The notes beneath the pieces were generated by a model, which did not search any database, had not been told where the DNA came from, and saw only the letters and a list, made by a program, of their open reading frames with translations. Below, piece by piece: positions 14,857 through 34,109 of a stretch of 64,000 bases of DNA. Each line of letters begins with the position of its first letter. Positions within the stretch are counted from its first letter, which is position 1. The stretch is from assembly GCA_001029675.1 (NCBI GenBank), contig CP011210.1:128193-192192 (forward strand), written 5' to 3'. The translations under genes and the position numbers were made by a program. The DNA is from Candidatus Beckwithbacteria bacterium GW2011_GWC1_49_16 (GTDB lineage: Bacteria > Patescibacteriota > Microgenomatia > UBA1400 > CG1-02-47-37).

Positions 14857-15155
14857 GTAAAACTGACAAAAAATCTCCCACTTCGCTGGGGGATTTACTC
14901 TCCGGCTATGATTGGGATAAGAAGAAATACATCAGCCGGGAGTGGCAGGATTATGCTTACCGGCTGGCGGTGGCTTTGGACGATTTGAAAAACAAATCAC
15001 TTTACATGAAATTAGCCAAAGAAACACCCCGGGCCTGGCTGGAAGAAGCCAAAAACTTTGTCAAAGACGCTTACGAAGTCAAGAGCAAAGCGAGGCTGTT
15101 TATGTGGAAATTAAAAGAGATTAGAAAAGAGAAGAAGAATGAAAAGAAAAAGTAG
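14853..15155 (+). CDS. hypothetical protein with a Lys-rich C-terminus
   Basis: A 100-aa ORF, 4-nt overlap-coupled to pth. Confidence 0.45.
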   Translation: MSKTDKKSPTSLGDLLSGYDWDKKKYISREWQDYAYRLAVALDDLKNKSLYMKLAKETPRAWLEEAKNFVKDAYEVKSKARLFMWKLKEIRKEKKNEKKK

Positions 15156-15170
15156 TTTTTTTGGCCAAAT

Positions 15171-15443
15171 ATGAAGCAGCGGGTACATCTTTATATTTCG
15201 GGTATAGTCCAGGGAGTAGGGTTTAGGTATTTTTTGAAGCAGACGGCCGACGCTTTGGGTATTTTTGGTTGGGCAAAAAATTTGGCCGGCGGCAGGGTAG
15301 AGGTAGTGTTTGAAGGGGAGAAAGGGGCGGTAAAACAAGCGGTCAACGAAGCTTGGCAGGGACCGCCGGCGGGTAAGGTGAGAGAGGTTGAAGTGGTTGG
15401 TGAGGCTTGGCAGGGGGAGAAGGAGTTTGCTATAGTGAGGTAA
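15171..15443 (+). CDS. acyP: acylphosphatase
   Basis: VQGVGFRYF and GWAKNLAGGRVEVVFEG signatures. Confidence 0.85.
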   Translation: MKQRVHLYISGIVQGVGFRYFLKQTADALGIFGWAKNLAGGRVEVVFEGEKGAVKQAVNEAWQGPPAGKVREVEVVGEAWQGEKEFAIVR

Positions 15444-15449
15444 GCCGAC

Positions 15450-16013
15450 ATGACTCGTAGAAAGACAAGCTTGTTTATTCTCGCAGGATATTTACTGGGA
15501 GTGGCGGTGACGGGGATAATTAGGGGAAAGATAGTTTTGCTGGCCGACTGGTTAGACGTGACGGGACTGTTTGTCGGCGGGGTTTTGGGTTGGCTGTTGG
15601 TGAACTTGGACCGGTTGGTTTATGTTTATTTTTCCCACGCAGGCACCCAAATGGCCCAGTACGCCAGATACCAGTTTGACCAGAAAAAATGGCGGGAGGG
15701 GTGGCGGATTTTGGAAATGAGGCAGGACGAGATGGAAGAGCTGACTTTCAGAAGCGCGCTGTTTCAGGCGGCGTGGGTGGTTTTGGCCTTGTTTGCTTTG
15801 ACCTCGACGGCGTCACTTTTTGGTAAAAGTTTAGTGATGGGGGTGGGCTTGAAGATTTTGGTAGACGAGTGGCGGGATTACCTTTATGCTCGAGGGACAC
15901 TCAAGCGCTGGCTGTTTTGGCAGGTGAAACGGGAGATAACCGATACAGAGGTGAAGGTTTATCTTTACGTGATGACGGCGGCGTTTTTGCTATTAACCCT
16001 GTTACTGCTATAA
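15450..16013 (+). CDS. hypothetical membrane protein
   Basis: A 187-aa ORF with about four hydrophobic segments. Confidence 0.5.
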   Translation: MTRRKTSLFILAGYLLGVAVTGIIRGKIVLLADWLDVTGLFVGGVLGWLLVNLDRLVYVYFSHAGTQMAQYARYQFDQKKWREGWRILEMRQDEMEELTFRSALFQAAWVVLALFALTSTASLFGKSLVMGVGLKILVDEWRDYLYARGTLKRWLFWQVKREITDTEVKVYLYVMTAAFLLLTLLLL

Positions 16014-16020
16014 TAGGGGC

Positions 16021-16740
16021 TTGAGAATGATAGTCAAAAAGCCGAATACGTTTGTTTTGGATCTGGGCGGGTCGGTGTTTGCCCCTAACAGCAGAGCCAA
16101 GGGGATTGATATTGCCTATCTCAAGCAATTTGAGAAGTTTATCAGAAAGCAAGTCGCCTTAAAGAGGCGATTTTTTATTGTCACCGGCGGCGGCTATGTG
16201 GCCCGCGAGTACCGCGATGCGGCGGCGGCGGCGGTGGGGGGAAAGATTGCCGACGAGGACTTGGACTGGCTGGGAGTACACGCCACCAGGTTAAACGCCC
16301 ATTTGTTTCGGACGATTTTCCGTGACATTGCTTATCCGTGGATTTTAAAGCATTATGATTTGGTCGATAAGAAAGTGACCACGCCGGTGGTGGTCTGTGG
16401 CGGCTGGAAGCCGGGCTGGTCCACCGATTACTGTAGCGTCCTGGTGGCGGCGGATTACCATATCGACACGGTGATCAGCTTGACCAATGTTGACTATGCT
16501 TATGACAAAGACCCGAATAAGTATAAAGGGGCTAAGCCGATCAAAACCATGGGCTGGGACGAGATGATTAAACTGGTGGGTAAAAAGTGGCGGCCGGGAA
16601 TGAACACGCCCTTTGATCCGGTGGCTTCCCGCGAGGCCAAGAAGTTCGGTTTGAAAGTGGTGATTGCCAACGGCAGGAAGTTTGCCAATTTGGAACGGAT
16701 TTTAGACGGAAAAACTTTTACCGGCACGGTGATTGAGTAG
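16021..16740 (+). CDS. pyrH: UMP kinase, archaeal-type (amino-acid-kinase family)
   Basis: LDLGGSVF, IVTGGGYVAREY, VVVCGGWKPGWSTDY...TNVDYAY..DP and GTVIE match the archaeal uridylate kinase blocks. Confidence 0.7.
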   Translation: MRMIVKKPNTFVLDLGGSVFAPNSRAKGIDIAYLKQFEKFIRKQVALKRRFFIVTGGGYVAREYRDAAAAAVGGKIADEDLDWLGVHATRLNAHLFRTIFRDIAYPWILKHYDLVDKKVTTPVVVCGGWKPGWSTDYCSVLVAADYHIDTVISLTNVDYAYDKDPNKYKGAKPIKTMGWDEMIKLVGKKWRPGMNTPFDPVASREAKKFGLKVVIANGRKFANLERILDGKTFTGTVIE

Positions 16741-16743
16741 CAG

Positions 16744-17421
16744 ATGATGACGCTGGGGCAACCAGAGGGTGAAATAGCGGTGACCGGGCCGGTGAAGGAC
16801 TATTTGGATTTAAGTTTTAAGCGGCGGTTGGTATTAGACGGCCAGGAGGAGCAAGTCTTAGATTTTTTTCTCGGCCAGCCGCCAAACACAATTTTTCAGA
16901 TACACCAGGTGCGGCAAGGCGCTTTTGAGGGGGGAGTGAAATACTCTGAAACTGTAATAAAAAGTTATCTTAGGAGTTTAAACGATGGCTTGGTCTCGTT
17001 GAATGGGGTTGAGTTAAGGATCGGCATAGTCCCAAATTATGGCAGATCAGGAAGGCAGGGATATGTTTTAATGACCCCGGGATTGGATGGTTATCAGCGC
17101 GTAGTTAAAGCTACCGCTGGCGAGAGAAAGGTAGATTTGTTGAGTTCCGAAGTTTGTCTTAGTAGAGTCAAGACTTTGACAAGAGTCTTAAAAGAAATAA
17201 AAAAAATGGAGCTAGTGACAGGGCTTTGGTCGGGCGAAAAGTTGTCTAGAGCCGAAGAATTGAGAGCTAATCTAATAGCAGAGCTTAGAGAGCAGATCGA
17301 GGCTTATCACGGAGGAAGCTTTAATGAATTTAGGGGTTGGGCTTTACGGGGAGTTGAAGATGCGGGCAAAGAGGAGAAGGCGTTTGAGGGGATGAGAGAG
17401 GTTTCAGGGAGTAAGGCTTGA
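16744..17421 (+). CDS. hypothetical protein
   Basis: A 225-aa ORF with no recognised motif. Confidence 0.45.
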   Translation: MMTLGQPEGEIAVTGPVKDYLDLSFKRRLVLDGQEEQVLDFFLGQPPNTIFQIHQVRQGAFEGGVKYSETVIKSYLRSLNDGLVSLNGVELRIGIVPNYGRSGRQGYVLMTPGLDGYQRVVKATAGERKVDLLSSEVCLSRVKTLTRVLKEIKKMELVTGLWSGEKLSRAEELRANLIAELREQIEAYHGGSFNEFRGWALRGVEDAGKEEKAFEGMREVSGSKA

Positions 17422-17457
17422 CAGAATTGGTAAAGGTAGTATACTAGGGGGGAGTAT
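17418..17457 (+). promoter_or_regulatory. sigma70-like promoter (TTGACA-N16-TATACT) overlapped by a TACT-A-GGGGGG-AGTA operator of RcnR/CsoR type
   Basis: -35 at 17418-17423 and -10 at 17440-17445. The pseudo-palindrome ATACT-AGGGGGG-AGTAT at 17441-17457 sits 12 nt upstream of the repressor gene start. Confidence 0.5.
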
Positions 17458-17468
17458 AACATTATCAA

Positions 17469-17723
17469 ATGAAACAACTTCAAGGTAAACAGGATAAAGT
17501 TGAACAATCCCTGGCGCGGATTGAGGGGCAGGTGCGGGGCATCAGCAAGATGTACGGCGAGGGTAAGCCCTGTTTGGACGTGGTGCAGCAGGTGGCCGCT
17601 GCCCGGGAAGCTTTGGGGAGAATCGGCAGGGAGCTTCTTAAAGATGAAGCCACTCTGTGTATGACTAGCGAGAAAGAGAAACAAAAGTTTGACAAAATTT
17701 TAAAGCAGTTATTTAAAAGCTAG
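17469..17723 (+). CDS. CsoR/RcnR-family (DUF156) transcriptional repressor, two-Cys CstR-like
   Basis: The helical 84-aa protein contains ARIEGQVRGI. Cys35 and Cys64 occupy the X and Z sensor positions. There is no His at the Y position. Confidence 0.75.
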   Translation: MKQLQGKQDKVEQSLARIEGQVRGISKMYGEGKPCLDVVQQVAAAREALGRIGRELLKDEATLCMTSEKEKQKFDKILKQLFKS

Positions 17724-17732
17724 GAGTTATAT

Positions 17733-18059
17733 ATGCCAGCAGGGCATTTTACCGATCAAGACTTTGAGGACAAAGTCTTAAAGCAAAAAGGAGTGTTTTT
17801 CGTCGACTTTTACGCCGACTGGTGCGGGCCGTGTAAAATCTCCGGCCCGATCATCGACAAGCTGGCTGATGAGTACCAAGGCAAGCTGACTTTCGGCAAG
17901 GTCAATGTCGATGAGAACCAGGCCACCAGCCAAAAGTACGGGGTGATGAGCATCCCGACGGTGGTGGTTTTAAAAGACGGCCAAGAAGTCGATAGGATGA
18001 TCGGCTTTGCCGGCGAGGAAGGCTATGTCAAGATGATTAAGAAGGCGCTGGGGGAATGA
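17733..18059 (+). CDS. trxA: thioredoxin
   Basis: WCGPCK active site. Length is 108 aa. Confidence 0.9.
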   Translation: MPAGHFTDQDFEDKVLKQKGVFFVDFYADWCGPCKISGPIIDKLADEYQGKLTFGKVNVDENQATSQKYGVMSIPTVVVLKDGQEVDRMIGFAGEEGYVKMIKKALGE

Positions 18060-19027
18060 ACGAAGTGCGTAAAGTGATCATCATCGGGTCGGGGCCGGCG
18101 GGGTATGCCGCGGCGCTTTACAACGCCAGGGCAGCCCTGGTACCGTTGGTTTTGGCCGGGGGAAAATGGGGCGGGCAGTTGATGCTGACGACTAAGGTGG
18201 AAAACTGGCCGGGGAGTAACGAGGGTATCATGGGGCCGGATTTGATGGAAAAGATGCGCCAACAGGCTAAAAAGTTTGGCGCCGAGATCGTGGACAAGAA
18301 TGTGACGGCGGTGGATTTTTCGAAAAGGCCGTTTGAGATTCACCTCGGAGGAGTTCCGCCGGCCGGCGGACCACCGTCCGAGGTGTATTTGGCCGAGGCG
18401 GTGATCGTGGCTACCGGGGCAGAGGCCAAGATGCTTGAAGTTGGCGAGGAGAAGTTTTTGGGCCGGGGAGTGTCGACCTGCGCCGTCTGCGACGCGCCGT
18501 TTTACAAGGACAAAATCACTTTCGTGGTGGGCGGGGGCGACGCGGCCATGGAAGAGGCTCTGGCCTTGGTCAAGCACGCCAGGGAGGTGATTATAGTTCA
18601 CAGAAGAGACCAGTTTCGGGCTTCGCAAATCATGCAAGATCGGGTGTTAAAAGACCACGCAGACAAGATTAAAGTCATCTGGGACAGCCAGGTTGCCGGA
18701 GTGGCGGGGGAAGAGAATTTAACCAAGATTGTGGTGGAGAATGTTAAAACTCAAGCCAAACAAGAGTTAGCGGTTGACGGTTTGTTTATAGCCATTGGCC
18801 ATAAACCTAATACCCAAATTTTCAAAGGCCAGCTGGAACTTGATAAAAAGGGGTATTTGGTAACCCGTTGGGGTGATTTAGGAAACTTTCCCACCCAAAC
18901 CAGCGTCACAGGCGTTTTTGGCGCGGGGGACGTGGTGGATTTTAGGTATCGCCAGGCAGTGACCGCGGCCGGTTTTGGAGTCATGGCCGCTCTGGACGCG
19001 GAGCGCTGGCTGGAACAGCAAGGATGA
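18056..19027 (+). CDS. trxB: thioredoxin reductase
   Basis: FAD motif IIIGSGPAGYAAA, redox CAVCDA, NADPH motif GGGDAAMEEA. Confidence 0.9.
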   Translation: MNEVRKVIIIGSGPAGYAAALYNARAALVPLVLAGGKWGGQLMLTTKVENWPGSNEGIMGPDLMEKMRQQAKKFGAEIVDKNVTAVDFSKRPFEIHLGGVPPAGGPPSEVYLAEAVIVATGAEAKMLEVGEEKFLGRGVSTCAVCDAPFYKDKITFVVGGGDAAMEEALALVKHAREVIIVHRRDQFRASQIMQDRVLKDHADKIKVIWDSQVAGVAGEENLTKIVVENVKTQAKQELAVDGLFIAIGHKPNTQIFKGQLELDKKGYLVTRWGDLGNFPTQTSVTGVFGAGDVVDFRYRQAVTAAGFGVMAALDAERWLEQQG

Positions 19028-19467
19028 TAGAGGTACTTAGAAGATTTCTAGGGCCAGCCCAGATTTTAGAGAAGGAAGATGTAGTGGTTGGGTCTGATTT
19101 CGATTTAGAAACAATAGGCGGAGAAAAGAGAAATTTATGGGTAGGGGAGAAGTTAGAGTTGGTGGCGGGAAATTTTAAGGGGGAGGGGGCGGTTTTGGAA
19201 ATTAAGGGTCCGCGAGAGGCATGGTTGTCCTTACACCACATTGATGGCGGTTTAAACTTTGTGTGTCACTTTTGGACCAATGGTGGATTAACAGCGGGAA
19301 AAGGTGAACACCCTTATCCTGGGACGAACCGATTTAACTGGCAGATAGGGAAGGGCAAGAATTTTGTCACCCTTGATGTGGATACGGGTTGTTTAATCGC
19401 CTTTGATTTAGGAACGATGAGGCAGGTAAGATTAAGATTGAAGGAAAGCCAAAAAACTGACGGTTGA
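19024..19467 (+). CDS. hypothetical protein
   Basis: A 147-aa ORF coupled to trxB by a 4-nt overlap. Confidence 0.45.
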   Translation: MIEVLRRFLGPAQILEKEDVVVGSDFDLETIGGEKRNLWVGEKLELVAGNFKGEGAVLEIKGPREAWLSLHHIDGGLNFVCHFWTNGGLTAGKGEHPYPGTNRFNWQIGKGKNFVTLDVDTGCLIAFDLGTMRQVRLRLKESQKTDG

Positions 19468-19492
19468 CAAAAAAAATTATCTTTGTTGTAAT
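19464..19492 (+). promoter_or_regulatory. putative promoter TTGACA-N17-TGTAAT upstream of the dsbA-like gene
   Basis: Hexamers are at 19464-19469 and 19487-19492. The start codon is at 19500. Confidence 0.35.
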
Positions 19493-19499
19493 TTAGTTC

Positions 19500-20258
19500 A
19501 TGGCCGAAGCTAAAAAAGAAACCAAAAAGGGCAAAAGCTTACTCCAACCGATTTTGATTGGTTTGTTAGTGATTGCCGCTTTTGCCATCGGCAGCATGTG
19601 GACGGAACTTAAAATGCTCAAAGGCGGGACGGGATTGGTGGGGACGACTCAGCAGGCAGGCCAGGGGGCGGCCGGTAGTGAAGCGGCGCCGGAAGAAATT
19701 ACCGAGTTGACCGATGAGCAGTGGCAGGAAGTTTTGGCCAAGCCGGCAGCGGTTAAAGGAGACGAAGGGGCAGAAGTAATCATGGTGGAGTTTACCGATT
19801 ATCAGTGCCCGTTTTGTAAGCGCCATTTTGACCAAACCGCAGCCCAAATCGATCAGGAATACACTGCTACGGGTAAAGTGCGTTACGTGATTCGGGATTT
19901 GCCTTTGTCTTTCCACCAAAATGCCCACGCGGCGGCCGAGGCGGCCCGGTGTGCCGGCGACCAGGAAGCCTATTTTGAATACCACGATAAGCTGTTTGAG
20001 ACCCAGACCGCTTGGGCGGAACTGGCTGACCCGAATGAGACTTTTAGCGGTTATGCCGGTGAACTGGGGCTTAATAGGTCAACTTTCTCCAGTTGTCTGA
20101 CCGACGGCAAGTATAAGGCCCAAGTGGATGAGGATTTGGGGCTAGCCCAAAAAGTGGGCGCCAATGGCACGCCGACTTTCTTCATCAACGGCAAGGCATT
20201 GGTCGGGGCCCAACCCTTTGCGGCCTTTAAGGCCATGCTCGACGCGGAACTTAATTAG
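19500..20258 (+). CDS. DsbA-family thiol:disulfide oxidoreductase with an N-terminal TM anchor
   Basis: CPFC active site in a thioredoxin-fold domain. The N-terminal hydrophobic helix is LLQPILIGLLVIAAFAIGSMW. Confidence 0.8.
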   Translation: MAEAKKETKKGKSLLQPILIGLLVIAAFAIGSMWTELKMLKGGTGLVGTTQQAGQGAAGSEAAPEEITELTDEQWQEVLAKPAAVKGDEGAEVIMVEFTDYQCPFCKRHFDQTAAQIDQEYTATGKVRYVIRDLPLSFHQNAHAAAEAARCAGDQEAYFEYHDKLFETQTAWAELADPNETFSGYAGELGLNRSTFSSCLTDGKYKAQVDEDLGLAQKVGANGTPTFFINGKALVGAQPFAAFKAMLDAELN

Positions 20259-20301
20259 GCGCCGGGCATCAGCTTCTAGCTTCTAGAATTACCCTATAGA
20301 G

Positions 20302-20670
20302 TTGAAAATTCTGATTATTTATGATATTGGTGTCAGTATTATGGAAGGAGAGAGGAAATTTGACAGAGGTGGAGTCGGAGAAGAGTTTACGGTTAAAGCC
20401 GGAACCCCTCTTGAAGCTCTTATGAGTTTAAGGGCGTCGGTGATAATGTCAGAAAGGATGCCGACCATGATACAGAGAGGAGAAGCCAGGCGAAAGTCTT
20501 TTTTAGACGCGGTGCGATTTTTAAGAAGAACACCCGATGTAGACAAAAGAAAATCTTTATTAGAGGGTCTTAGGTCGACCGAGCCTGGGGTAGCCCAAAA
20601 AGTAGAGCGGACTTTGAACTTAACCAAGGCAATTGTGGTGATGATGCAGACGGCTAAAAGCCAGGGTTGA
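20302..20670 (+). CDS. hypothetical protein
   Basis: A 122-aa ORF. The start is uncertain. Confidence 0.3.
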   Translation: MKILIIYDIGVSIMEGERKFDRGGVGEEFTVKAGTPLEALMSLRASVIMSERMPTMIQRGEARRKSFLDAVRFLRRTPDVDKRKSLLEGLRSTEPGVAQKVERTLNLTKAIVVMMQTAKSQG

Positions 20671-21596
20671 AAACGGTAGGGTTTGGTATAATTGGCGCTA
20701 TGAAGAAATTGGCACTTGGGTGTTTGAGTTTCATTATGTTTTTGTCTCTGGCGGTTGTAGTTCCCGCCTACGTCCAAGGCTTCGGCGAGGCAAAGGAAGC
20801 CACCGAGGCGGCGTCGACGGTGGCGACCGAGTCGGCCACCAAGCAAATCGAAGCGGCGGTTAAGGAGGACATTACCGAGAGAACCTCGCCGGCCAAAGGC
20901 AGACTAGAGCGGTATTTAGCCGAGAAGGAGTTGGGAGAGCTTTCTTACAGGAACTTTTTACAGCACGCCATTAGAAGAGCGGTAGCCCAGGGAGTCTCGG
21001 CCAACACCATCGTTTTGGTGCTACTTTTTCCGTTGGTGGCAGGGTTGATTGCCGCTGGCCGCCATCTTTTGGGACTAACCGGATTTGGCATTTTTGTGCC
21101 GGCGATGCTGGCGGTGGCATTCCTTGCTACCGGGATCAAGGTGGGCATGGTTTTGTTTGTAGTGATTTGGCTTTTGGCGACTGCCTCCAGGGGGTTGACG
21201 GGCAGGTTAAAGCTGCAGTATCTACCGCGAATGGCGCTGTTGATGTGGTTTGTGTCGGTGGGGGTGTTGGCGGTGATGCTCGCGGCAGTCAACATCAACT
21301 TTGGGGAACTCTCGGCCGTGTCGATTTTTCCGATCTTGATTTTGATGTTACTAGCCGAAAACTTTATCGAAGTCCAGGCGGGCAAAAGCGGCCGGGAGGC
21401 TTTTCTGGTGACTTTGCAGACTATCATTATGGCGGTAGCGGCGGCTTTGGTGCTGCGGCTTGATCTGGTGCAGCGCCTGGTGCTTTTAAACCCGGAAATT
21501 TTTCTGCTCGCGGTGGCAATATTTGACGTTTACGTGGGCCGCTACGTGGGCTTGAGGGCTTTGGAGTGGGTGAAGTTTAAAAAACTACTTAGATAA
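20667..21596 (+). CDS. polytopic membrane protein, 7TM_transglut-like
   Basis: Signal/TM N-terminus followed by 6-7 TM helices. It is positioned immediately upstream of an ATPgrasp_ST-type ligase, as in known amidoligase operons. Confidence 0.45.
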   Translation: MKTVGFGIIGAMKKLALGCLSFIMFLSLAVVVPAYVQGFGEAKEATEAASTVATESATKQIEAAVKEDITERTSPAKGRLERYLAEKELGELSYRNFLQHAIRRAVAQGVSANTIVLVLLFPLVAGLIAAGRHLLGLTGFGIFVPAMLAVAFLATGIKVGMVLFVVIWLLATASRGLTGRLKLQYLPRMALLMWFVSVGVLAVMLAAVNINFGELSAVSIFPILILMLLAENFIEVQAGKSGREAFLVTLQTIIMAVAAALVLRLDLVQRLVLLNPEIFLLAVAIFDVYVGRYVGLRALEWVKFKKLLR

Positions 21597-21610
21597 GTGG
21601 TTGGGGGATT

Positions 21611-22939
21611 ATGAGGCGCAGCGACATTTTGGGCATGAACGCCAGAAACCACTTGTATCAGTCGCGCTACAACAAGCCCAAGGGTAAAAAGATTGCCGGC
21701 TCGAAGTTACTGACTAAGTCGACTTTGAGAAAAGCGAGGCTGGCCGTGCCTAAACTTTACCGGGTGTTTAAAAGAGAAGAGGCGGTGGAAAAGTATGATT
21801 TTATGAAGCTGCCGGAGAGTTTTGTGGTCAAGCCCAGCCAGGGTTTGGGCGGAGAAGGGATTTTGGTAATTGAGCGAGGAGGGGAATATGCCGGCGAGTG
21901 GGTGACGGTGGACAAACAGTTGGTGGCAGCCAACGATTTAAGGCTTCACATCAAGGATATCTTGGCGGGCAAGTACTCGATGCATGATTTGCCGGACACG
22001 GCCTTTGTGGAGGAGAGGGTGAGGGTGCACCCGAGATTTAGCCCAATTTCCTTTCAGGGGACGCCGGATATAGGGGTGTTGGTGTTTAACCGGGTGCCGG
22101 TGATGGCCTTTTTGCGGTTGGCGACCAGAGAATCTCACGGCAAAGCCAACATGTTTCAGGGGGCGGTGGCCTGCGGCATTGACATGGCCACCGGAGTGAC
22201 CACCGACGCGGTCAGACACACCAGCCAGATTACTTTTTTCCCGGGAACCAGAAGGAAGCTTAGAGGCATTAGGGTTCCCCGGTGGGATAAAGTTTTGAGG
22301 CTGGCGGTGGAGGCGGCCGAGGCGGTGGGGTTGGGGTTTTGCCGGGTGGACGTGGCGCTTCAGCCGAAGTTAACCCGTGAGGGGAAACTGAAAAGCAAGC
22401 CGATGGTGCTGGAGGTCAATTCCCAACCGGGCTTGAAAATTCAGCTGGCCAATGCGGCGGGGTTAAGGCGGAGACTGACGCGGGTTGAGGGGCTTAAGGT
22501 GAAGACGGTGAGGCAAGGTTTGGAGATCGGCAAGCAATTGTTCGCCGCTCGGGACGAAGCCGAGTCGATTCAGGGCGGGGTGGTGCACGTGGGGGTGTTT
22601 GAGAACCTGGAAGTGGAGGATTTTTTGGGAGAAAAACACCAAGTGGCGGCCAAGATTGACACCGGCGCCTTTAGGACCTCGATCGACGAGGCTTTGGCCA
22701 AAAGGCTGGGGTTGACAGACCCGGAAAACGTGCTGTGGAACGTGGGTTATAGAAGCGCCTTGGGCAGGGAAGAGCGGAAAGTGGTGGGGCTGACTTTTTG
22801 GCTTCGCGATAAAAAGATCAAGACCAGCGCTTCGGTGGCAGACAGGTCTAAACTCAAACGGCCGATGATTGTCGGCAGGAGGGATTTATTGGGATTTTCT
22901 TTGCGGGTGAGAGAGAAGGAAGCCGAGCAGGAGGCTTAA
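21611..22939 (+). CDS. alpha-L-glutamate-ligase-related ATP-grasp (ATPgrasp_ST) fused to a retropepsin-like Zn_protease (DUF785) domain
   Basis: N-terminus ILGMNARNHLY...KLLTK. ATP-grasp core FVVKPSQGLGGEGI. C-terminal AKIDTGAFRTS is the retropepsin-like DTGA signature. Confidence 0.65.
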   Translation: MRRSDILGMNARNHLYQSRYNKPKGKKIAGSKLLTKSTLRKARLAVPKLYRVFKREEAVEKYDFMKLPESFVVKPSQGLGGEGILVIERGGEYAGEWVTVDKQLVAANDLRLHIKDILAGKYSMHDLPDTAFVEERVRVHPRFSPISFQGTPDIGVLVFNRVPVMAFLRLATRESHGKANMFQGAVACGIDMATGVTTDAVRHTSQITFFPGTRRKLRGIRVPRWDKVLRLAVEAAEAVGLGFCRVDVALQPKLTREGKLKSKPMVLEVNSQPGLKIQLANAAGLRRRLTRVEGLKVKTVRQGLEIGKQLFAARDEAESIQGGVVHVGVFENLEVEDFLGEKHQVAAKIDTGAFRTSIDEALAKRLGLTDPENVLWNVGYRSALGREERKVVGLTFWLRDKKIKTSASVADRSKLKRPMIVGRRDLLGFSLRVREKEAEQEA

Positions 22940-22946
22940 TAAATCA

Positions 22947-24491
22947 ATGTTGTTTGTTGATAGCGATTGGCAGAAAAGCAAAGAGGCGGTACGGCAGGCG
23001 CTTGGTCGGGTTGATAAAAATTTGGTCGGCATCGGGGTGACGGCGTTTAACCGGATCAGCCCCGCCTTGGTATCGGATAAGTTTCAGTTGGTGTGCCACC
23101 GGGCCGGTTCGGATTTGCCATATTTGAGAAAAATTGCCAAAGTGACGGCTATCTCCGAGAGTTGGCCGGAAACGGCGGGGATGACGAGGTACAACAGTTT
23201 GGCGATTTTACAACACCCGGGAGTGGAGCAGTATTTGACCAGTCTAGGTAAGGTTGGGGTGTTTGTTTACAAAACCAGCGAGCGGGTGGACAGGCTGTGT
23301 GACGAGCGGGGTTATCAGTTGATTGCCAACCGGCACGAGATCAGAGATAAGTTTGAGAACAAGAAGGATTTTCGGGTGATCGGTAAAAAAATTGGCCTGA
23401 AGATGATCGGGGGCGAGACGATAAAGATTGATGACTTAAGCGACGAGAAATATGGAGAGTTAGTTGGTAAGATGGGGGATAAACTTGTTCTGCAGCTGAC
23501 CGAGTTGTCCCGCGGCGGCGGGTCGGGAACTTTTTTTATTAACAACAAGGGTGATCTTGAAAAATTCAGAGAAGTGGTGGCGGAAAAAGGGGAGAATCGG
23601 GAAGAAGAGGAGAAGCTGACGTTTGTCAATGTGACCCAGTTTGTCGAGGGAATTGCCGGCAGCATTACCGGCTGTGTCACAAGAGAAGGGGTGCTGACCG
23701 GGGTAGTTCAGACCCAGGTGGTGGACGTGCCCGAGCTGGTGCGACGCGACACCGGCCGCAGTGGAGTGTTTCGGGGGCACGACTGGAGTGTATTTCACTA
23801 TTCGGACAAGGTTCAAAGACAGGCCGAGAAGATGGCCGAGGCTTTGGGCGGCTTTATGGCGAAAGAGGGCTATAAGGGGATTTTTGGCATTGATTTGATC
23901 ATCGACCGGGAGCGGGACGAGGTGTACCCGGTGGAGTGCAACCCCCGCTACACCGGGGCGTTTCCGGTTTACAGCCTGCTTCAGGCGCAAGCGAACGAAG
24001 TGCCGCTGGACGTGTTTCAGCTGTTGGAGTTTTTGGGGGTTGACTACGCTTATGATTTTGAGGCGGTCAATCAAAGCTGGAAAACGCCAAAGTTTGGAGC
24101 CCACCTGGTGCTTCACAACCGCGACCACGAGAACTGGGTGAGGGCGGGCGGGGAGCTGGCGGCAGGGGTGTATCGGTTTAAGGTTGAGGCAGACGACAAG
24201 GTGGAGCTGACATTTTTAAGGGAAGGCTTTCAGCCGGAGGATTTGCGGGGAGAGGACGAGTTGGTGTTGACCGACGGGGTGCCTTACAAGGGGGATTTGA
24301 TTAAACCGCATTTACGCTGCGGCAAGTTGATTTTTGCCGGCAAGGTTTTAAACAAGATTCATGACCAGTTGACGGCGGAAGCCAGCGCTGTGGTCAAAGA
24401 AGTTTACCGCCGGTTTGACTTTCAGGTGGTGGACGTGCCCGAGGACGACTGGCGCTGGGAGAGAAGAATGGCTAGTGAAGCAAACGCTTGA
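22947..24491 (+). CDS. ATP-grasp domain protein (second ligase of the cluster)
   Basis: The C-terminal half contains IFGIDLIIDRERDEVYPVECNPRYTG, the ATP-grasp E/N catalytic region. The N-terminal region is unassigned. Confidence 0.5.
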   Translation: MLFVDSDWQKSKEAVRQALGRVDKNLVGIGVTAFNRISPALVSDKFQLVCHRAGSDLPYLRKIAKVTAISESWPETAGMTRYNSLAILQHPGVEQYLTSLGKVGVFVYKTSERVDRLCDERGYQLIANRHEIRDKFENKKDFRVIGKKIGLKMIGGETIKIDDLSDEKYGELVGKMGDKLVLQLTELSRGGGSGTFFINNKGDLEKFREVVAEKGENREEEEKLTFVNVTQFVEGIAGSITGCVTREGVLTGVVQTQVVDVPELVRRDTGRSGVFRGHDWSVFHYSDKVQRQAEKMAEALGGFMAKEGYKGIFGIDLIIDRERDEVYPVECNPRYTGAFPVYSLLQAQANEVPLDVFQLLEFLGVDYAYDFEAVNQSWKTPKFGAHLVLHNRDHENWVRAGGELAAGVYRFKVEADDKVELTFLREGFQPEDLRGEDELVLTDGVPYKGDLIKPHLRCGKLIFAGKVLNKIHDQLTAEASAVVKEVYRRFDFQVVDVPEDDWRWERRMASEANA

Positions 24492-28979: not shown

Positions 28980-29053
28980 GGGCGCTTAGCTCAGTTGGTT
29001 AGAGCGCAGTCCTGATAAGACTGAGGTCCATGGTTCGAGTCCATGAGCGCCCA
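28980..29053 (+). tRNA. tRNA-Ile (anticodon GAT)
   Basis: Cloverleaf with acceptor GGGCGCT/AGCGCCC, anticodon loop CCTGATAAG, T-arm GGTTCGAGTCC. Confidence 0.9.
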
Positions 29054-29091
29054 CAATTTATTTATTCCGTTTGTTAAGATAAAATGTTGCT

Positions 29092-29970
29092 ATGGGTTCT
29101 CAACCTGGTTTACACGAGGTTCCGGCAAGCGAAGAGCTTTCTAAATATGAGAAAAGTGATGTTGTTGCCAAGGTAATTGACTGTATTGATCGTAAACTGG
29201 ATGAGGGACAGACTTCCACTATTTTGCTAACTGGCGGTCCGGGAGTGGGTAAATCAACGGCTTCTTATGAAGTGCTTGATTACTTAAAACTAGAAAGAGG
29301 CTTAGAGTCAGTGTGGATACAAGCTCCCGACATCGGCAGTGAAAAGACAAGAGATAGAATAATCCATATGGGCAACGACAAAGTCTTATTTATAGATTCA
29401 GTTGATAATTTATTTCCTTCTTCTAAAGACCCCGATGAGGTGGCTGAAACAGTGAAGCTATTAAAAGATTTAGCCCAAAAAGGAGAGGGTCCAATAGTTA
29501 TAGCTAACATCCATGATCCCTATTTAGTTAAAAGAGAGATTAAAACAACCCATCTTCCTTTAAGAGACCAAATACTAGGTGATACAGGCTTGTTTTCTGA
29601 TACAAAACAACATTTTGTCGTTGAAGATCGGTTTGTTAATGAAAAAGCCATGAGCGTGGCGGTAAAAAGACTGATAGGTCAGGCTGATATTCACGCGAGT
29701 TGGGCTACCTTTATTCAGCTTGAACTTGAAAAACACGAAGTTAATAAACATAGCGAAACAACCTTTGCATTGTCTTTACTAAAGAAAGATTCTATGCCAG
29801 GGAGTTTGAAGAAATCTTATGTTTTAGGCAGTGAAGATGAGGTCAGGACTTGGTTTAACGATGCTATTGAAGATGCTAGAAAGGTGGGAGAAGAATTTTA
29901 TCGGGCTTATTATGAGCCAGACAGCGAAAGTGAGGCTTTCAAGGGACTAGTGCGATTTGATGTAAGCTAG
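29092..29970 (+). CDS. P-loop NTPase (AAA-like) encoded inside the 16S-23S spacer
   Basis: Walker A LLTGGPGVGKST and Walker B KVLFIDSVD. The gene is AT-rich. It is flanked by a duplicated tRNA-Ile 3' end. Confidence 0.55.
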   Translation: MGSQPGLHEVPASEELSKYEKSDVVAKVIDCIDRKLDEGQTSTILLTGGPGVGKSTASYEVLDYLKLERGLESVWIQAPDIGSEKTRDRIIHMGNDKVLFIDSVDNLFPSSKDPDEVAETVKLLKDLAQKGEGPIVIANIHDPYLVKREIKTTHLPLRDQILGDTGLFSDTKQHFVVEDRFVNEKAMSVAVKRLIGQADIHASWATFIQLELEKHEVNKHSETTFALSLLKKDSMPGSLKKSYVLGSEDEVRTWFNDAIEDARKVGEEFYRAYYEPDSESEAFKGLVRFDVS

Positions 29971-30212: not shown

Positions 30213-30285
30213 GGGCCCATGGCGCAGTTGGTAGCGCGTCTCGTTTGCAACGAGAAGGTCGTCGGTTCGACCCCGACTGGGTCCA
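30213..30285 (+). tRNA. tRNA-Ala (anticodon TGC)
   Basis: Acceptor stem with the G3:U70 Ala identity pair, anticodon loop TTTGCAA, T-arm GGTTCGACCCC. Confidence 0.9.
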
Positions 30286-30342
30286 CCGCGTAAAGTCCCG
30301 CTAAGCTGGACCACGCGGCAAGCACGCGTAAAGCAGGCAAGC

Positions 30343-30416: not shown

Positions 30417-30929
30417 GTGAAGAGAATACCGATCTTTATAGCCAAATATTTTGGTCTATTTGAATTAAAGCAGTCGGTGGATGCCTTGGATGTATTAGCC
30501 GAAGAAGGACGTGCCAGGCCACGATAGGCGTCGGGGAGCTGCCAAGAAGCTGTGATCCGGCGGTGTCCGAATGGGAAAACCTCCTCATTAGTAATAGTGG
30601 GGGCCCCGACAGCGCAAGCTTGTCGGGGGGGGAACCCGGGGAACTGAAATATCTAAGTACCCGGAGGAAAAGAAATTAAATAAGATGCCGTCAGTAGCGA
30701 CGAGCGAAAGCGGTCTAGTCCAAACTCCGACATTACGTCGGAGGGTTGTAGGGCTCCAATATGGGACTACGAGAGATAGTCGAACAACTCGGAATAGTTG
30801 GCCAAAGAAAGTGAAAGCCTTGTAGATGAAATTTTGAGTAGCTCTAGGAGATTCCTGAGTACCACGAGAGACGGCAAACTCTTGTGGGAAGCCGGGGCGA
30901 CCACGCTCCAAGACTAAATACTAATACAT

Positions 30930-30970
<41 letters not shown>

Positions 30971-32456
30971 GGGTCGATGACCCAGTGAAATAGTACCTGA
31001 AACCGATTGCTAACAAACAGTGGGAGGGCCGACGTAAGTCGAGCCTGACCGCGTGCCTATTGAAGAATGAGCCGGCGAGTCTTTGCTGGTGGCAAGGTTA
31101 AGTCGCTTGAAGCGACGGAGCCATAGTGAAAGCGAGCCTGAATAGGGCGATTAGTTGCCAGCAGAGGACCCGAAGCCGAGCGATCTATTCATGAGCAGGG
31201 TGAACCTCGAGTGATATCGGGGGGAAGCCCGAACCTGTGTATGTTGCAAAATGCTAGGATGACTTGTGAATAGAGGTAATATGCCAAACGAGCTCGGAGA
31301 TAGCTGGTTCTCCCCGAAATATATTTAGGTATAGCCTTTCCTTATTTAGGCGCAGGGGTAAAGCACTGGATGGGCATTAGGGACTTGTCTCTGATGCTCA
31401 ACCAAACTCTGAATACTGCGTTGATAACGGAAGGAGTCAGTTGCTGGGGGCTAAGCTCCAGCCGCAAAAGGGAAACAACCCAGATCTCCAGCTAAGGTCT
31501 CTAAATCACTTGCTTAGTTTGTAAGGAGGTCGTAGTCCTTAGACAGCCAGGAAGTCGGCTTAGAAGCAGCCATCTTTGAAAGAAAGCGTAACAGCTCACT
31601 GGTTGACGGAAGACGGCGCCGAAAATTTATCGAGGATAAAGCAGTGTACCGAAGCTGAGACCCCGACAGCGCAAGCTTGTCGGGGGGTAGGGGAGCGTTC
31701 TAAGGGCAGTGAAGGGCCGATGTAAATCGCGCCTGGAGCGCTTAGAAGTGAGAATGCCGGCATGAGTAGCGGAACTCCGGTGAGAATCCGGAGGGTCGAA
31801 AGTCCGAGGTTTCCTACGCAACGTTCGTCGGCGTAGGGTTAGTCGGGCCTAAGGCAAGCCCCGTGTAGTGCGGGGGTAGTCGATGGACAACAGGTTAATA
31901 TTCCTGTACCGGTGACCAATCGTTATTCCCGACGCAAGTCGGGATAAACAGCTGGGGTGGGACGGAATTTGAGAAGTCGAGCGTCTTATTGATTTGACGT
32001 CTAAAAGGCGAGTCAGTCCCGATGTGAAAATCAGTCGGGACGACGGCGAGTCTTGATGGAGAGTTCTCCTTTGGGAGAGCAATTCGACCGGCTTAAGTTT
32101 CCGAGAAAAGCATCGCAGCGAGAAGGGTCACCGCCCGTACCGCAAACCGACACAGGTGGACAAGTCGAGTAGACTAAGATCAGCGGAAGAACGGTGGTTA
32201 AGGAACTCGGCAAATTAGCTGGGAGTAATTTTGAGAGATTCCCTGTCCGACGTTACGTCGGACCGCAGCGAAAGAGTGCCAAGCGACTGTTTAACAAAAA
32301 CACAGGTCTATGCAAAGGCGCAAGCCTAGGTATATGGGCTGAAACCTGCCCAATGCCGGAAGGTTAATTGAGAGGGTGACGTCCGACTTCGGTCGTGACC
32401 GAGCCTTCGATCGAAGCCCCGGTGAATGGCGGCTTTAACTATAAGAGTCCAAAGGT

Positions 32457-33119: not shown

Positions 33120-33236
33120 AGCGAAGTACCTTGTCGGGTAAGTTCCGACGCGCACGAAAGGTGTAACGACTTGGCAACTGTCTTGACCACTGATCCGGTG
33201 AAATTGAAATGGCTGTGAAGATGCGGCCTATTGACT

Positions 33237-33267
<31 letters not shown>

Positions 33268-33908: not shown

Positions 33909-33946
<38 letters not shown>

Positions 33947-34109
33947 TCCCAAGATGAGGAATCCCATTAAGATCCCTGGGAGACTACCAGGTGATAGGCA
34001 GCCGGTGTAAGTGCCGTAAGGCATTTAGCCTAGCTGTACTAATCGATCGATCGAAAATAGACCAATTTATTTTGGCTATAAAGAACGAGTATTCTCTTTA
34101 AAATAACTT

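What the first reader, a model, noticed from the sequence alone, without database searches (positions are those of the whole stretch)
17418..19027. Two-cysteine CsoR/RcnR-family repressor with an RcnR-type operator (TACT-A-G6-AGTA) controlling the thioredoxin / thioredoxin reductase operon
A near-consensus promoter (TTGACA-N16-TATACT) is overlapped by ATACT-AGGGGGG-AGTAT. This matches the type 1 CsoR/RcnR operator architecture: a single G tract flanked by an AT-rich inverted repeat (E. coli RcnR operator TACT-G6-N-AGTA). The operator sits 12 nt upstream of a DUF156 repressor whose sensor positions carry Cys35 and Cys64 with no His. That is the CstR-like pattern of persulfide/thiol sensing, rather than Cu or Ni sensing. 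The repressor is followed by trxA, trxB, a hypothetical gene, and a membrane-anchored DsbA. A thiol-based redox sensor driving the thioredoxin system would be a compact oxidative or sulfide stress circuit in a reduced genome.
Basis: partly seen in the sequence, partly recalled or inferred. Interest (0 to 1): 0.6.

Follow-up and report, generated by a model that had tools for sequence, protein, structure and literature searches.

The report
Thiol-sensing repressor guarding thioredoxin operon
A small CsoR/RcnR-family repressor with two cysteines and no histidine sits behind its own G-tract palindrome and ahead of the thioredoxin and thioredoxin reductase genes, and this trio is conserved across many ultra-small (CPR) bacteria, which makes it a likely but untested redox switch for their main thiol-repair system.

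Summary
TTGACA (17418-23), a 16-nt spacer and TATACT (17440-45) overlap the palindrome TATACT-AGGGGGG-AGTATA (17440-58). This lies 11 nt before an 84-aa PF02583 protein with Cys35, Glu60, Cys64 and no His. trxA, trxB, a hypothetical gene and a membrane-anchored DsbA-like gene follow. The window is from Candidatus Beckwithbacteria GW2011_GWB1_47_15.

In 13 of 13 CPR lineages examined (34-76% identical regulators), the regulator is followed directly by trxA, and usually by trxB. Each locus has exactly one 17-bp ATAC(T/C)-N7-(A/G)GTAT site at the regulator's promoter. Eight sites carry a G6 tract. The site's register relative to the -35, the -10 and the ATG varies, so it is an independent element and not just a -10 plus ribosome-binding site.

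The C-E-C fingerprint is near-invariant across 121 homologues. The protein fails the defining features tested for RcnR, FrmR, CsoR and InrS (RicR only on its NCBIfam score), and it lacks CstR's wedge Asn and sulfide-detoxification neighbours.

Best reading: the reduced tetramer autorepresses the operon, Cys oxidation releases it, and thioredoxin probably resets it. The effector is inferred, not shown. I found no description of this in the literature. It is a new variant of a known kind.

The parts
17418..17423 (+). -35 box TTGACA. The stop codon TGA of the upstream ORF (16744-17421) lies inside it.
   Evidence: A TTGACA/TTGACT box is present upstream of the regulator in 12 of 13 lineages, and TTGTAA in the thirteenth.
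17440..17445 (+). -10 box TATACT, which is the left arm of the operator plus the preceding T.
   Evidence: 16-nt spacer, 11 of 12 matches. The same geometry is seen in 8 lineages.
17440..17458 (.). Operator: palindrome TATACT-AGGGGGG-AGTATA. Core is ATACT-N7-AGTAT (17441-17457). It also reads as TAC-N9-GTA. This is the type 1 CsoR/RcnR architecture.
   Evidence: There is exactly one such site per locus in 13 CPR lineages, always at the regulator's promoter. Type 1 definition from PMC3902906. E. coli RcnR and FrmR sites were read for comparison.
17469..17723 (+). Regulator gene: 84-aa CsoR/RcnR-family (PF02583/DUF156) protein with fingerprint x-C35-E60-C64 and no His.
   Evidence: Pfam E=1.9e-20. 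PDB sequence hits to InrS, CsoR, CstR and FrmR. AF2 three-helix model with pLDDT 85.5. Foldseek top 19 hits are all from this family. Aligned with E. coli RcnR and FrmR.
17722..17726 (+). AGGAG ribosome-binding site of trxA. It overlaps the regulator's stop codon and lies 6 nt before the trxA ATG.
   Evidence: Read directly. The 9-nt intergenic gap implies co-transcription.
17733..18059 (+). trxA, thioredoxin (WCGPC active site).
   Evidence: PF00085 E=7e-28. TIGR01068 scores 117.9 bits against a cut-off of 96.8.
18056..19027 (+). trxB, low-Mr NADPH thioredoxin reductase (CAVC, HRRDxxRA). Its start overlaps the trxA stop.
   Evidence: TIGR01292 scores 368.9 bits against a cut-off of 343.45. 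Pfam Pyr_redox_2.
19024..19467 (+). Hypothetical 147-aa gene. Its start overlaps the trxB stop. It is lineage-specific, so probably co-transcribed but not part of the conserved module.
   Evidence: No Pfam or NCBIfam hit. Its 90%-identity cluster has only 2 members. Other lineages have GDH or nothing at this position. It is unrelated to the insert in L108.
19500..20258 (+). DsbA-like thiol:disulfide oxidoreductase (CPFC) with an N-terminal hydrophobic stretch read as a membrane anchor; a frequent downstream companion of the module.
   Evidence: PF13462 E=2.5e-34 and PF01323. The anchor is read from the translation; no topology predictor was run. A DsbA-family gene follows trxB directly or within a few genes in L081-L090, L104 and L108.

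Best explanation
This is an autoregulated redox circuit. The 84-aa protein is a CsoR/RcnR-family repressor, by homology a disc-shaped tetramer.

Proposed mechanism:
- In its thiol-reduced state the repressor binds the single type 1 operator ATACT-A-G6-AGTAT. The operator coincides with the -10 box and the expected transcription start of a near-consensus promoter.
- Binding blocks RNA polymerase and represses the operon regulator-trxA-trxB, probably with the hypothetical gene and the DsbA-like gene as well.
- Oxidation of the sensor thiols bridges Cys35 (first residue of helix 2) to Cys64' (last residue of helix 2 of the partner subunit). The bridge would be a disulfide or a per/polysulfide link, as in CstR and T. 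thermophilus TTHA1953.
- This lowers DNA affinity and derepresses the operon.
- The induced thioredoxin and thioredoxin reductase then restore cellular thiols and probably re-reduce the repressor, which closes a negative feedback loop.

What is shown here: family membership and fold; the fingerprint; a conserved operator in the right place; and the conserved regulator-trxA(-trxB) linkage across CPR bacteria.

What is inferred: DNA binding by this protein; repression; the chemical nature of the signal (disulfide or H2O2 stress versus reactive sulfur species); and the reset by thioredoxin.
For: 1. Family and fold. Pfam PF02583 E=1.9e-20. PDB sequence hits are only to CsoR/RcnR-family chains. The AF2 model has helices 2-30, 35-64 and 68-82, with the two Cys at the two ends of helix 2. 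The top 19 Foldseek hits are all family members.

2. Fingerprint. In the alignment with E. coli RcnR and FrmR, positions 35/60/64 read C/E/C, against C/H/H in RcnR and C/H/T in FrmR. There is no His3 or Pro2. Across 121 CPR homologues, C35 is present in 119, E60 in 119 and C64 in 114. All 7 that lack C64 have C62, and both that lack C35 have C62 and C64.

3. Regulon. The regulator is followed directly by trxA in 13 of 13 lineages, and by trxB in 11. These include a regulator only 34% identical on a 229-kb Patescibacteria contig (L095).

4. Operator. There is exactly one ATAC(T/C)-N7-(A/G)GTAT site per locus, always at the regulator's promoter. Eleven sites are strict ATACT-N7-AGTAT and eight carry G6. 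The strict pattern occurs once in 588 kb of control loci.

5. The operator is an independent element. The gap from the -35 to the operator is 17-18 nt in 8 lineages, 3-7 nt in 4, and 29 nt in 1. The gap from the operator to the ATG ranges from -2 to +41. It always overlaps core promoter elements or the start region, which fits repression.

6. Pairing of protein and site. In 80 non-CPR CsoR-family loci, the same 5-7-5 architecture appears just upstream of the family gene, with ATACC...GGTAT arms. T/A arms occur only with Gln at residue 40, as in RcnR and FrmR. The one CPR lineage with Thr40 (L106) has ATACC...GGTAT arms.

7. Precedent. Two-Cys family members lose DNA binding on oxidation. TTHA1953 does so with H2O2 or Cu(II) (PMC10318464). 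CstR reacts with persulfides and H2O2 (PMC8643695 and PMC11672702).
Against: - No experiment supports binding, repression or the effector.
- A Cys-Glu-Cys site could in principle ligate a metal. Glu64 is a metal ligand candidate in Salmonella FrmR (abstracts of PMC5016687 and PMC4528141).
- Among the 150 best cluster representatives of a wider search, about 13 keep E60 and C64 but lack C35, some with no obvious second Cys. An intersubunit C35-C64' bridge therefore cannot be universal in the wider clade.
- In some lineages a 95-170-nt gap separates the regulator from trxA. In Dojkabacteria that gap holds a terminator-like hairpin. There, control of trxA by the upstream operator is less certain.
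- Only 64 kb of the roughly 1.05-Mb genome could be scanned for further operators.
- The G tract lies 14 nt from the ATG, so a secondary role as a weak ribosome-binding site cannot be excluded.
Confidence: 0.7

Rival explanations
1. Persulfide-specific sensor, a true CstR analogue. The two Cys are bridged by di-, tri- or tetrasulfide links only in response to reactive sulfur species. The thioredoxin system would be induced as a protein depersulfidase in sulfidic groundwater.
For: The x-C-x-C fingerprint is the one used to call CstR clusters (PMC8643695). Thioredoxin-like proteins reduce protein persulfides in S. aureus (abstract of PMC6196236).
Against: Position Y is Glu, not the wedge Asn of x-C-N-C CstRs. 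No rhodanese, persulfide dioxygenase, SQR or TauE-type genes appeared next to the regulator in any of the 13 lineages. The protein is no closer to CstR (E=2e-8) than to InrS (2e-11) or CsoR (2e-10). CstR itself also reacts with H2O2 in vitro, so specificity cannot be read from sequence.
Confidence: 0.2
2. Metal sensor. A Cys35-Glu60-Cys64' site binds a metal such as Cu(I), Zn, Fe, Co or Ni. Metal binding, not oxidation, releases the repressor. Thioredoxin would be induced to repair metal-catalysed thiol damage.
For: Most characterised family members are metal sensors, and NCBI names close relatives 'metal-sensitive transcriptional regulator'. Carboxylate at a fingerprint position is compatible with metal binding in FrmR variants (abstracts).
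Against: The protein has no His at all, and no N-terminal His3 or other W ligand. No copA, copZ, rcnA or other efflux gene appeared in any of the 13 neighbourhoods. The protein scores far below the RicR, RcnR and FrmR model cut-offs. When Cys positions are lost, another Cys replaces them, not His, Asp or Glu.
Confidence: 0.08
3. The palindrome is not an operator for this protein. It is only a conserved -10 box plus a G-rich ribosome-binding site, or the site of an unrelated factor. The regulator's target lies elsewhere.
For: TATACT is a good -10 box. GGGGGGAG and AGGAGGG (L086) resemble Shine-Dalgarno sequences. Several relatives have the ATG immediately after the site.
Against: The site keeps its 5-7-5 palindromic form while its register changes: the left arm is the -10 in 8 lineages, the site lies inside the spacer in 4, and it lies downstream of another -10 in 1. 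It lies up to 41 nt from the ATG. In L100 and L101 the arms are kept although the G tract is lost. If TATACT is the -10, transcription would start inside the G tract, leaving it too close to the 5' end to act as an RBS. The architecture is the family-specific one (TAC-N9-GTA), and it covaries with residue 40 of the adjacent protein.
Confidence: 0.04
4. Electrophile or aldehyde sensor of the FrmR type. A covalent adduct on Cys35 from formaldehyde, quinones or methylglyoxal releases the repressor.
For: Cys35 is the reactive residue in FrmR. The protein shares the 'LQQIAA.R.A' helix-2 motif and T/A-armed G-tract sites with RcnR and FrmR.
Against: There is no Pro2. The N-terminus is MKQ here and MDK in relatives, so the Pro2-Cys35 methylene bridge cannot form. 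There is no frmA-like dehydrogenase neighbour. The FrmR model scores 21.9 bits against a cut-off of 133. The conserved second Cys argues for a dithiol mechanism.
Confidence: 0.05

Closest known systems
E. coli RcnR (Ni/Co sensor) and its type 1 operator TACT-G6-N-AGTA
   Same: Same Pfam family and three-helix fold. Cys35 aligns, and residue numbering is identical at 35/60/64. The 'QQ' motif at 40-41 is shared. The operator has the same arms (TACT/AGTA), a G6 tract and a 7-bp spacing. Two relatives (L085, L107) have exactly TACT-G6-T-AGTA.
   Different: The fingerprint is x-C-E-C, not H-C-H-H, and there is no His anywhere. There is a single site rather than a tandem pair. In the window the odd base lies 5' of the G tract. 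The target is trxA-trxB rather than the rcnA efflux gene. The protein scores 37.7 bits against the RcnR model cut-off of 138.
CstR (persulfide sensor; S. aureus, E. faecalis, S. pneumoniae)
   Same: A two-Cys x-C-x-C fingerprint at the same X and Z positions, no metal-type His, and a repressor of a thiol/sulfur-stress operon. The expected mechanism is an intersubunit Cys-Cys' bridge.
   Different: Position Y is a near-invariant Glu instead of the wedge Asn. Neighbours are thioredoxin and thioredoxin reductase, not sulfurtransferase, persulfide dioxygenase or SQR. The operator is a single-G-tract type 1 site, whereas the CstR and CsoR sites described in the literature are type 2. Sequence similarity is no higher than to InrS or CsoR.
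Thermus thermophilus TTHA1953 (two-Cys CsoR-family regulator of the sox operon)
   Same: It has two Cys (C39/C68) and binds DNA only when reduced. H2O2 or Cu(II) gives disulfide-linked dimers. Its operon begins with a thioredoxin-family gene, soxW (PMC10318464).
   Different: Its site is TACNNTACNNNNGTANNGTA without a G tract. Its regulon is sulfur oxidation, not the cytoplasmic TrxA/TrxB system. It comes from a different phylum and clade.
Functional analogues outside the family: Spx (Bacillus), RsrA-SigR (Streptomyces)
   Same: These are thiol-based sensors that induce trxA and trxB under disulfide stress (Spx: abstracts). Reset of RsrA by the thioredoxin system is from my own knowledge of that system.
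   Different: The protein folds and mechanisms are unrelated (an RNAP-binding activator; an anti-sigma factor). Here a one-component repressor sits in the same operon as its targets.

Membership tests
CsoR/RcnR (PF02583, DUF156) superfamily | Significant match to the family profile above the curated cut-off | tested here: met
   73.5 bits against a gathering score of 22.8, E=1.9e-20, covering residues 8-80.
CsoR/RcnR (PF02583, DUF156) superfamily | All-alpha three-helix protomer with the X residue at the N-terminus of helix 2 and Y/Z at its C-terminus | tested here: met
   AF2 helices 2-30, 35-64 and 68-82, pLDDT 85.5. The top 19 Foldseek PDB hits are InrS, CstR, CsoR and FrmR.
CsoR/RcnR (PF02583, DUF156) superfamily | Dimer-of-dimers tetramer that binds DNA in the uninduced state | not testable with these tools
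   Only a monomer could be modelled. No binding assay was possible.
Type 1 CsoR/RcnR operator (Iwig and Chivers classification, as quoted in PMC3902906) | [quoted passage not shown] | tested here: met
   TATACT-AGGGGGG-AGTATA has a G6 tract, 6-bp perfect arms and a 7-bp spacing. It has the same form as the E. coli rcnR-rcnA sites read.
Type 1 CsoR/RcnR operator (Iwig and Chivers classification, as quoted in PMC3902906) | Located at the promoter of the regulated gene and conserved with the regulator | tested here: met
   It overlaps the -10 box and start region here. There is one site per locus in 13 of 13 CPR lineages.
RcnR (Ni/Co sensor) | H-C-H-H fingerprint (His3, Cys35, His60, His64) | tested here: not met
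   The alignment with E. coli RcnR gives Q3/C35/E60/C64, and the protein has no His.
RcnR (Ni/Co sensor) | Score above the equivalog model cut-off, and an rcnA efflux neighbour | tested here: not met
   NF011613 scores 37.7 bits against 138. The neighbours are trxA and trxB.
CstR (persulfide sensor) | Two conserved Cys at X and Z (x-C-x-C) | tested here: met
   C35 and C64 are present in 119 and 114 of 121 homologues.
CstR (persulfide sensor) | Wedge Asn at Y (x-C-N-C) in the structurally characterised cluster | tested here: not met
   Position Y is Glu in 119 of 121 homologues. The alignment to 7mq1 places E60 opposite Asn.
CstR (persulfide sensor) | Genomic neighbourhood of sulfide or sulfite detoxification genes | tested here: not met
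   No such Pfam families were found near the regulator in the window or in 13 lineages.
CstR (persulfide sensor) | Persulfide-driven intersubunit polysulfide cross-link that releases DNA | not testable with these tools
   This needs biochemistry.
CsoR (Cu(I) sensor) | x-C-H-C fingerprint and a copA/copZ neighbourhood | tested here: not met
   Position Y is Glu and there is no cop gene. The nearest non-CPR hits are C-H-C and form a separate group. RicR model: 49.7 bits against 175.
FrmR (formaldehyde sensor) | Pro2 plus Cys35 (P-C-H-x) and an frmA neighbour | tested here: not met
   The N-terminus is MKQ or MDK. NF008464 scores 21.9 bits against 133.
InrS (Ni sensor) | H-C-H-C fingerprint | tested here: not met
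   InrS is the best PDB sequence hit (E=2.4e-11), but the aligned His residues are absent here.

The most novel reading that the evidence does not exclude
The CPR-wide C-E-C clade is the missing general thiol-oxidation (H2O2 or disulfide stress) sensor of the CsoR/RcnR superfamily, and is not specific to reactive sulfur species. On this reading it acts as the main redox-stress regulator of Patescibacteria. It would be the one-component functional counterpart of OxyR, Spx or RsrA, read out and reset directly by the thioredoxin system it controls. The conserved Glu60 would tune Cys reactivity.
Probability: 0.35. Interest if true: 0.72.

Novelty: new variant of a known kind. Interest (0 to 1): 0.6.

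Why it matters
CPR (Patescibacteria) bacteria make up a large part of bacterial diversity, and to my knowledge few are cultured and none of their transcriptional circuits has been characterised experimentally (I did not check this here). This work gives a complete, testable circuit of sensor, operator and targets that is conserved across Beckwithbacteria, other Microgenomates, Dojkabacteria and other Patescibacteria. It controls what is probably their main thiol-reducing system.

For the CsoR/RcnR field, it adds a distinct clade (x-C-E-C) with a new regulon. A 2024 review states that the lack of a characterised H2O2-specific CsoR-family sensor limits understanding of oxidant specificity in this fold (PMC11672702). 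This clade is a candidate to fill that gap.

The operator survey also suggests a protein-DNA specificity rule: residue 40 tracks arm base 5. Mutagenesis could test it.

Tried and rejected
- Genome-collection scan. It used the full-length alignment. The 80 loci it did return were reused as a control set.
- Metagenome scan. Only 7 related loci came back, but L094 and L095 were informative.
- Supplementary tables of the CsoR-family SSN paper are not held. I could not find out which SSN cluster, if any, contains this clade.
- Five literature searches for a CsoR-family/thioredoxin link or a CPR redox regulator found nothing relevant. The C. acidurici paper was a false lead.
- I tested whether the 147-aa hypothetical gene matches the extra gene between trxA and trxB in L108. 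It does not. It has no Pfam or NCBIfam match.
- I looked for second operators in the regulator-trxA and trxA-trxB gaps of lineages with long gaps. There are none. Those gaps hold hairpins or terminator-like structures instead.
- I rejected the '-10 plus Shine-Dalgarno only' reading because the site's register varies.
- I rejected membership of RcnR, FrmR, CsoR and InrS on fingerprint, plus model score or neighbourhood where tested. I rejected RicR on its NCBIfam score alone.
Full report
**Observation**

- TTGACA lies at 17418-17423, then a 16-nt spacer, then TATACT at 17440-17445. This is the best sigma-70-like site in 15000-22000, matching 11 of 12 positions.
- The -10 box is the left arm of a perfect 6-bp inverted repeat, TATACT-AGGGGGG-AGTATA (17440-17458).
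- TACT-N-G6-AGTA occurs once in the 64-kb window even with two mismatches allowed, against 0.28 expected from shuffles.
- The core ATACT-N7-AGTAT is unique in the window. It occurs once in 588 kb of unrelated control loci.
- The ATG of an 84-aa ORF follows 11 nt later, at 17469.
- The stop codon of the upstream ORF (16744-17421) lies inside the -35 box. The whole control region therefore fits in a 47-nt intergenic gap.

**Genes**

- The 84-aa protein matches PF02583 (CsoR/RcnR, DUF156) at E=1.9e-20.
- trxA is at 17733-18059. It has a WCGPC active site and passes the TIGR01068 cut-off.
- trxB is at 18056-19027 and passes the TIGR01292 cut-off.
- A 147-aa gene with no family match is at 19024-19467.
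- A DsbA-like protein is at 19500-20258. It has a CPFC motif and an N-terminal hydrophobic stretch that I read as a membrane anchor; no topology predictor was run.
- The gaps are 9 nt between the regulator and trxA, with an AGGAG box overlapping the regulator's stop codon, then 4-nt overlaps, then 32 nt. No convincing + strand terminator lies in between. Co-transcription is therefore likely.
- Exact protein matches identify the source as Candidatus Beckwithbacteria bacterium GW2011_GWB1_47_15. This is a CPR bacterium whose longest contig is 1.05 Mb. There the regulator is annotated only as a hypothetical protein.

**Fingerprint**

I read E. coli rcnR and frmR and their control regions from the K-12 genome as comparators.
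- In the alignment, window residues 35/60/64 are C/E/C. RcnR has C/H/H and FrmR has C/H/T.
- The W ligands, His3 in RcnR and Pro2 in FrmR, are absent.
- The protein contains no histidine at all.
- PDB alignments place E60 opposite the Cu- or Ni-binding His of CsoR and InrS, and opposite the Asn of pneumococcal CstR.
- The AF2 model (pLDDT 85.5) has three helices. Cys35 is the first residue of helix 2 and Cys64 the last.
- The top 19 structural matches in the PDB are all family members.
- By homology with solved tetramers, Cys35 and Cys64' of the partner subunit would face each other. This was not modelled here.
- The protein falls far below the NCBIfam cut-offs for RicR, RcnR and FrmR.

**A CPR-wide clade**

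- Database searches returned about 120 close and intermediate homologues. All of those carrying a source organism name are from Patescibacteria: Beckwithbacteria, Microgenomates, Dojkabacteria and 'Patescibacteria group'; most carry no name.
- Over 121 sequences, C35 is present in 119, E60 in 119 and C64 in 114.
- The seven that lack C64 all have Cys62. The two that lack C35 have both Cys62 and Cys64. A dithiol is therefore always kept in this set.
- The next-best hits outside CPR are C-H-C (CsoR-type), C-Q-C or C-R-C.
- An exhaustive profile search of 1.84 billion cluster representatives found 60 C-E-C proteins among the best 150, plus about 20 more with Glu at Y.
- About 13 of those keep C64 but lack C35. 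This is a caveat for a universal C35-C64' bridge.

**Conserved regulon**

- In every lineage whose context I could fetch, the regulator is followed directly by a thioredoxin gene. This is 13 independent lineages with 34-76% identity to the window protein.
- In 11 of the 13, a thioredoxin reductase follows.
- A DsbA-family gene often comes next.
- No metal efflux, copper chaperone, sulfurtransferase, persulfide dioxygenase or formaldehyde dehydrogenase gene appears next to the regulator in any of them.

**Conserved operator**

Each of the 13 lineages has exactly one 17-bp site of the form ATAC(T/C)-N7-(A/G)GTAT, always at the regulator's promoter.

| Spacer or form | Loci |
|---|---|
| ATACT-AGGGGGG-AGTAT | window, L081, L095, L098, L103, L108 |
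| ATACT-GGGGGGT-AGTAT (exact E. coli RcnR form) | L085, L107 |
| ATACT-AGGAGGG-AGTAT | L086 |
| ATACT-CATATGG-AGTAT | L100 |
| ATACT-CTAGTAC-AGTAT | L101 |
| ATACCCCCACTGAGTAT | L104 |
| ATACCCATGGGGGGTAT | L106 |

- L095 and L103 carry the identical 19-bp site TATACTAGGGGGGAGTATA, although their regulators share only 34-49% identity with the window protein.
- The site meets the published definition of a type 1 CsoR/RcnR site and the TAC-N9-GTA rule (PMC3902906).
- It has the same arms and G6 tract as the tandem E. coli rcnR-rcnA sites, TACTGGGGGGTAGTA and TACTGGGGGGGAGTA, which I read directly.

**Not just a -10 box plus a ribosome-binding site**

The register of the site moves between lineages.
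- The gap from the -35 to the site is 17-18 nt in eight lineages, where the left arm is the -10.
- The gap is 3-7 nt in four lineages, where the site lies inside the spacer and its right arm or flank supplies the -10.
- The gap is 29 nt in L095, where the site lies downstream of a separate TATATA.
- The distance to the start codon ranges from -2, where the ATG lies inside the right arm, to +41.
- In L100 and L101 the arms persist without a G tract.
- In every geometry the site overlaps core promoter elements or the start region. That is the position expected for a repressor.

**Protein-site pairing**

- The 80 non-CPR CsoR-family loci returned by the failed genome scan served as a control. They hold 62 sites with the same 5-7-5 architecture, but with ATACC...GGTAT arms and split C/G tracts. 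Most lie just upstream of the family gene.
- I cross-tabulated residue 40 (Cys35 + 5) against arm base 5.
- Non-Gln residues always go with C/G arms: 41 of the 41 such residue-arm pairings counted.
- T/A arms occur only with Gln40: in ten CPR lineages, and on one arm of each FrmR site. RcnR (also Gln40) has TACT/AGTA arms that the ATAC-anchored scan did not score; I read them.
- The single CPR lineage with Thr40 (L106) has ATACC...GGTAT arms.
- Gln40 is permissive, since four proteobacterial QQ proteins have C/G arms. The pattern is therefore suggestive and not a strict code.

**Mechanism**

- The best-supported reading is an autoregulated thiol switch. The reduced tetramer occupies the operator and blocks the promoter. 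Oxidation of the Cys pair to an intersubunit disulfide or polysulfide releases it. The induced thioredoxin and thioredoxin reductase repair thiols and probably re-reduce the sensor.
- T. thermophilus TTHA1953 is one precedent. It is a two-Cys family member that binds DNA only when reduced, forms disulfide-linked dimers with H2O2 or Cu(II), and controls an operon headed by the thioredoxin SoxW (PMC10318464).
- CstR is another. It reacts with persulfides and, in vitro, rapidly with H2O2 (PMC8643695 and PMC11672702).
- Whether the natural signal is disulfide or peroxide stress or reactive sulfur species cannot be decided from sequence.
- Metal sensing is unlikely. There is no His, no W ligand and no efflux neighbour, and lost Cys are replaced by Cys. 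It is not excluded, because a Cys-Glu-Cys site could bind a metal.

**Comparison and novelty**

- The protein works like a CstR or TTHA1953-type dithiol repressor and uses an RcnR-type operator. It fails the defining features tested for RcnR, FrmR, CsoR and InrS. RicR was checked only against its NCBIfam model, which the protein fails. It also lacks CstR's wedge Asn and neighbourhood.
- It is best described as a distinct x-C-E-C clade of the CsoR/RcnR superfamily, found in this survey only in CPR bacteria, with the thioredoxin system as its regulon.
- The superfamily SSN paper does not mention thioredoxin in its main text and leaves several clusters uncharacterised.
- Five full-text searches found no description of such a circuit.
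- A 2024 review notes that no H2O2-specific CsoR-family sensor has been characterised.
- I rate it a new variant of a known kind, with interest 0.6. The in-silico case for sensor, operator and regulon is unusually complete. It gives a directly testable regulatory circuit for a poorly understood part of the bacterial tree. The chemistry of the signal is still unproven.

**Limits**

The lineage sample of 13 therefore comes from exact-protein look-ups.
- Only 64 kb of this genome could be scanned for further operators.
- In lineages with long regulator-trxA gaps, such as the Dojkabacteria L101 with its terminator-like hairpin, trxA may have its own promoter.

Noticed in passing
window 30454-34064 (23S rRNA); ORF 32545-33081: The 23S rRNA gene spans 3611 nt against a 2925-nt model. 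The extra roughly 690 nt contains a 178-aa LAGLIDADG homing endonuclease ORF (PF00961, E=2.8e-23). This looks like an intron or insertion in the large-subunit rRNA gene, as has been described for CPR bacteria (from my own knowledge, not checked here).
   Followed up: partly
window 29092-29970, between tRNA-Ile (28980-29054) and tRNA-Ala (30213-30287): The 16S-23S spacer of the rRNA operon holds a 292-aa ORF with a P-loop (AAA / STAND-like NTPase Pfam hits; AAA E=4e-7, STAND families below their cut-offs). A protein gene between the two spacer tRNAs is unusual.
   Followed up: partly
L101 2732-2881 (Dojkabacteria locus, between the regulator and trx): A GC-rich hairpin followed by a T run (ATACTCCGGATCttgGATCCGGAGTATTTTATTTTTT) looks like an intrinsic terminator. 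It is itself flanked by the operator arm sequences ATACT and AGTAT. The regulator may be monocistronic there, or the hairpin may be a second binding site.
   Followed up: no
L001-L080 (non-CPR CsoR-family loci), about 20-150 nt upstream of each family gene: Sixty-two ATACC-N7-GGTAT sites lie mostly just upstream of CsoR-family genes across Proteobacteria, Actinobacteria and Firmicutes. Arm base 5 tracks residue 40 of the protein (non-Gln goes with C/G; T/A occurs only with Gln). This may be a DNA-specificity determinant for the whole superfamily.
   Followed up: partly
Alignment of 121 CPR homologues and 150 cluster representatives: A third Cys at position 62 (a C-x-C motif) is present in 40 of 121 homologues. 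It always accompanies loss of C35 or C64. A wider set includes proteins with E60 and C64 but no C35 (A/V/Y/G/S/E/P at X). These may sense through a different thiol chemistry.
   Followed up: partly
L095 2821-2847: A truncated extra site, ATACTGGGGTAT, abuts the full operator ATACTAGGGGGGAGTAT and shares two bases with it. This may be a degenerate tandem arrangement reminiscent of the E. coli rcnR-rcnA tandem sites.
   Followed up: no
L098 about 2455-2485: A G5...C5 inverted repeat brackets the -35 box (gtGGGGGcttgacaaaagcaCCCCCtt) in the lineage whose regulator has Arg instead of Cys35. Its significance is unknown.
   Followed up: no
window 15171-23000 and L081-L090, L098, L100, L107: There is extended synteny around the module in Microgenomates: acylphosphatase, LGT (absent from some of these loci), amino-acid kinase, regulator, trxA, trxB, glutamate dehydrogenase in most loci (absent in the window), DsbA, 7TM_transglut and an ATP-grasp gene. 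In the window the GDH position is taken by the 147-aa hypothetical gene.
   Followed up: partly
L081, L086, L098, L101 (ATG inside the right arm); L100, L107 (ATG abutting it); L085 (in-frame ATG one base after it): In most close relatives the start codon overlaps or abuts the operator (AGTATG or AGTATATG), and the left arm is the -10 box. The mRNA would then have a leader of only a few nucleotides and be effectively leaderless. The window's gene instead has a 7-codon N-terminal extension and a longer leader.
   Followed up: no
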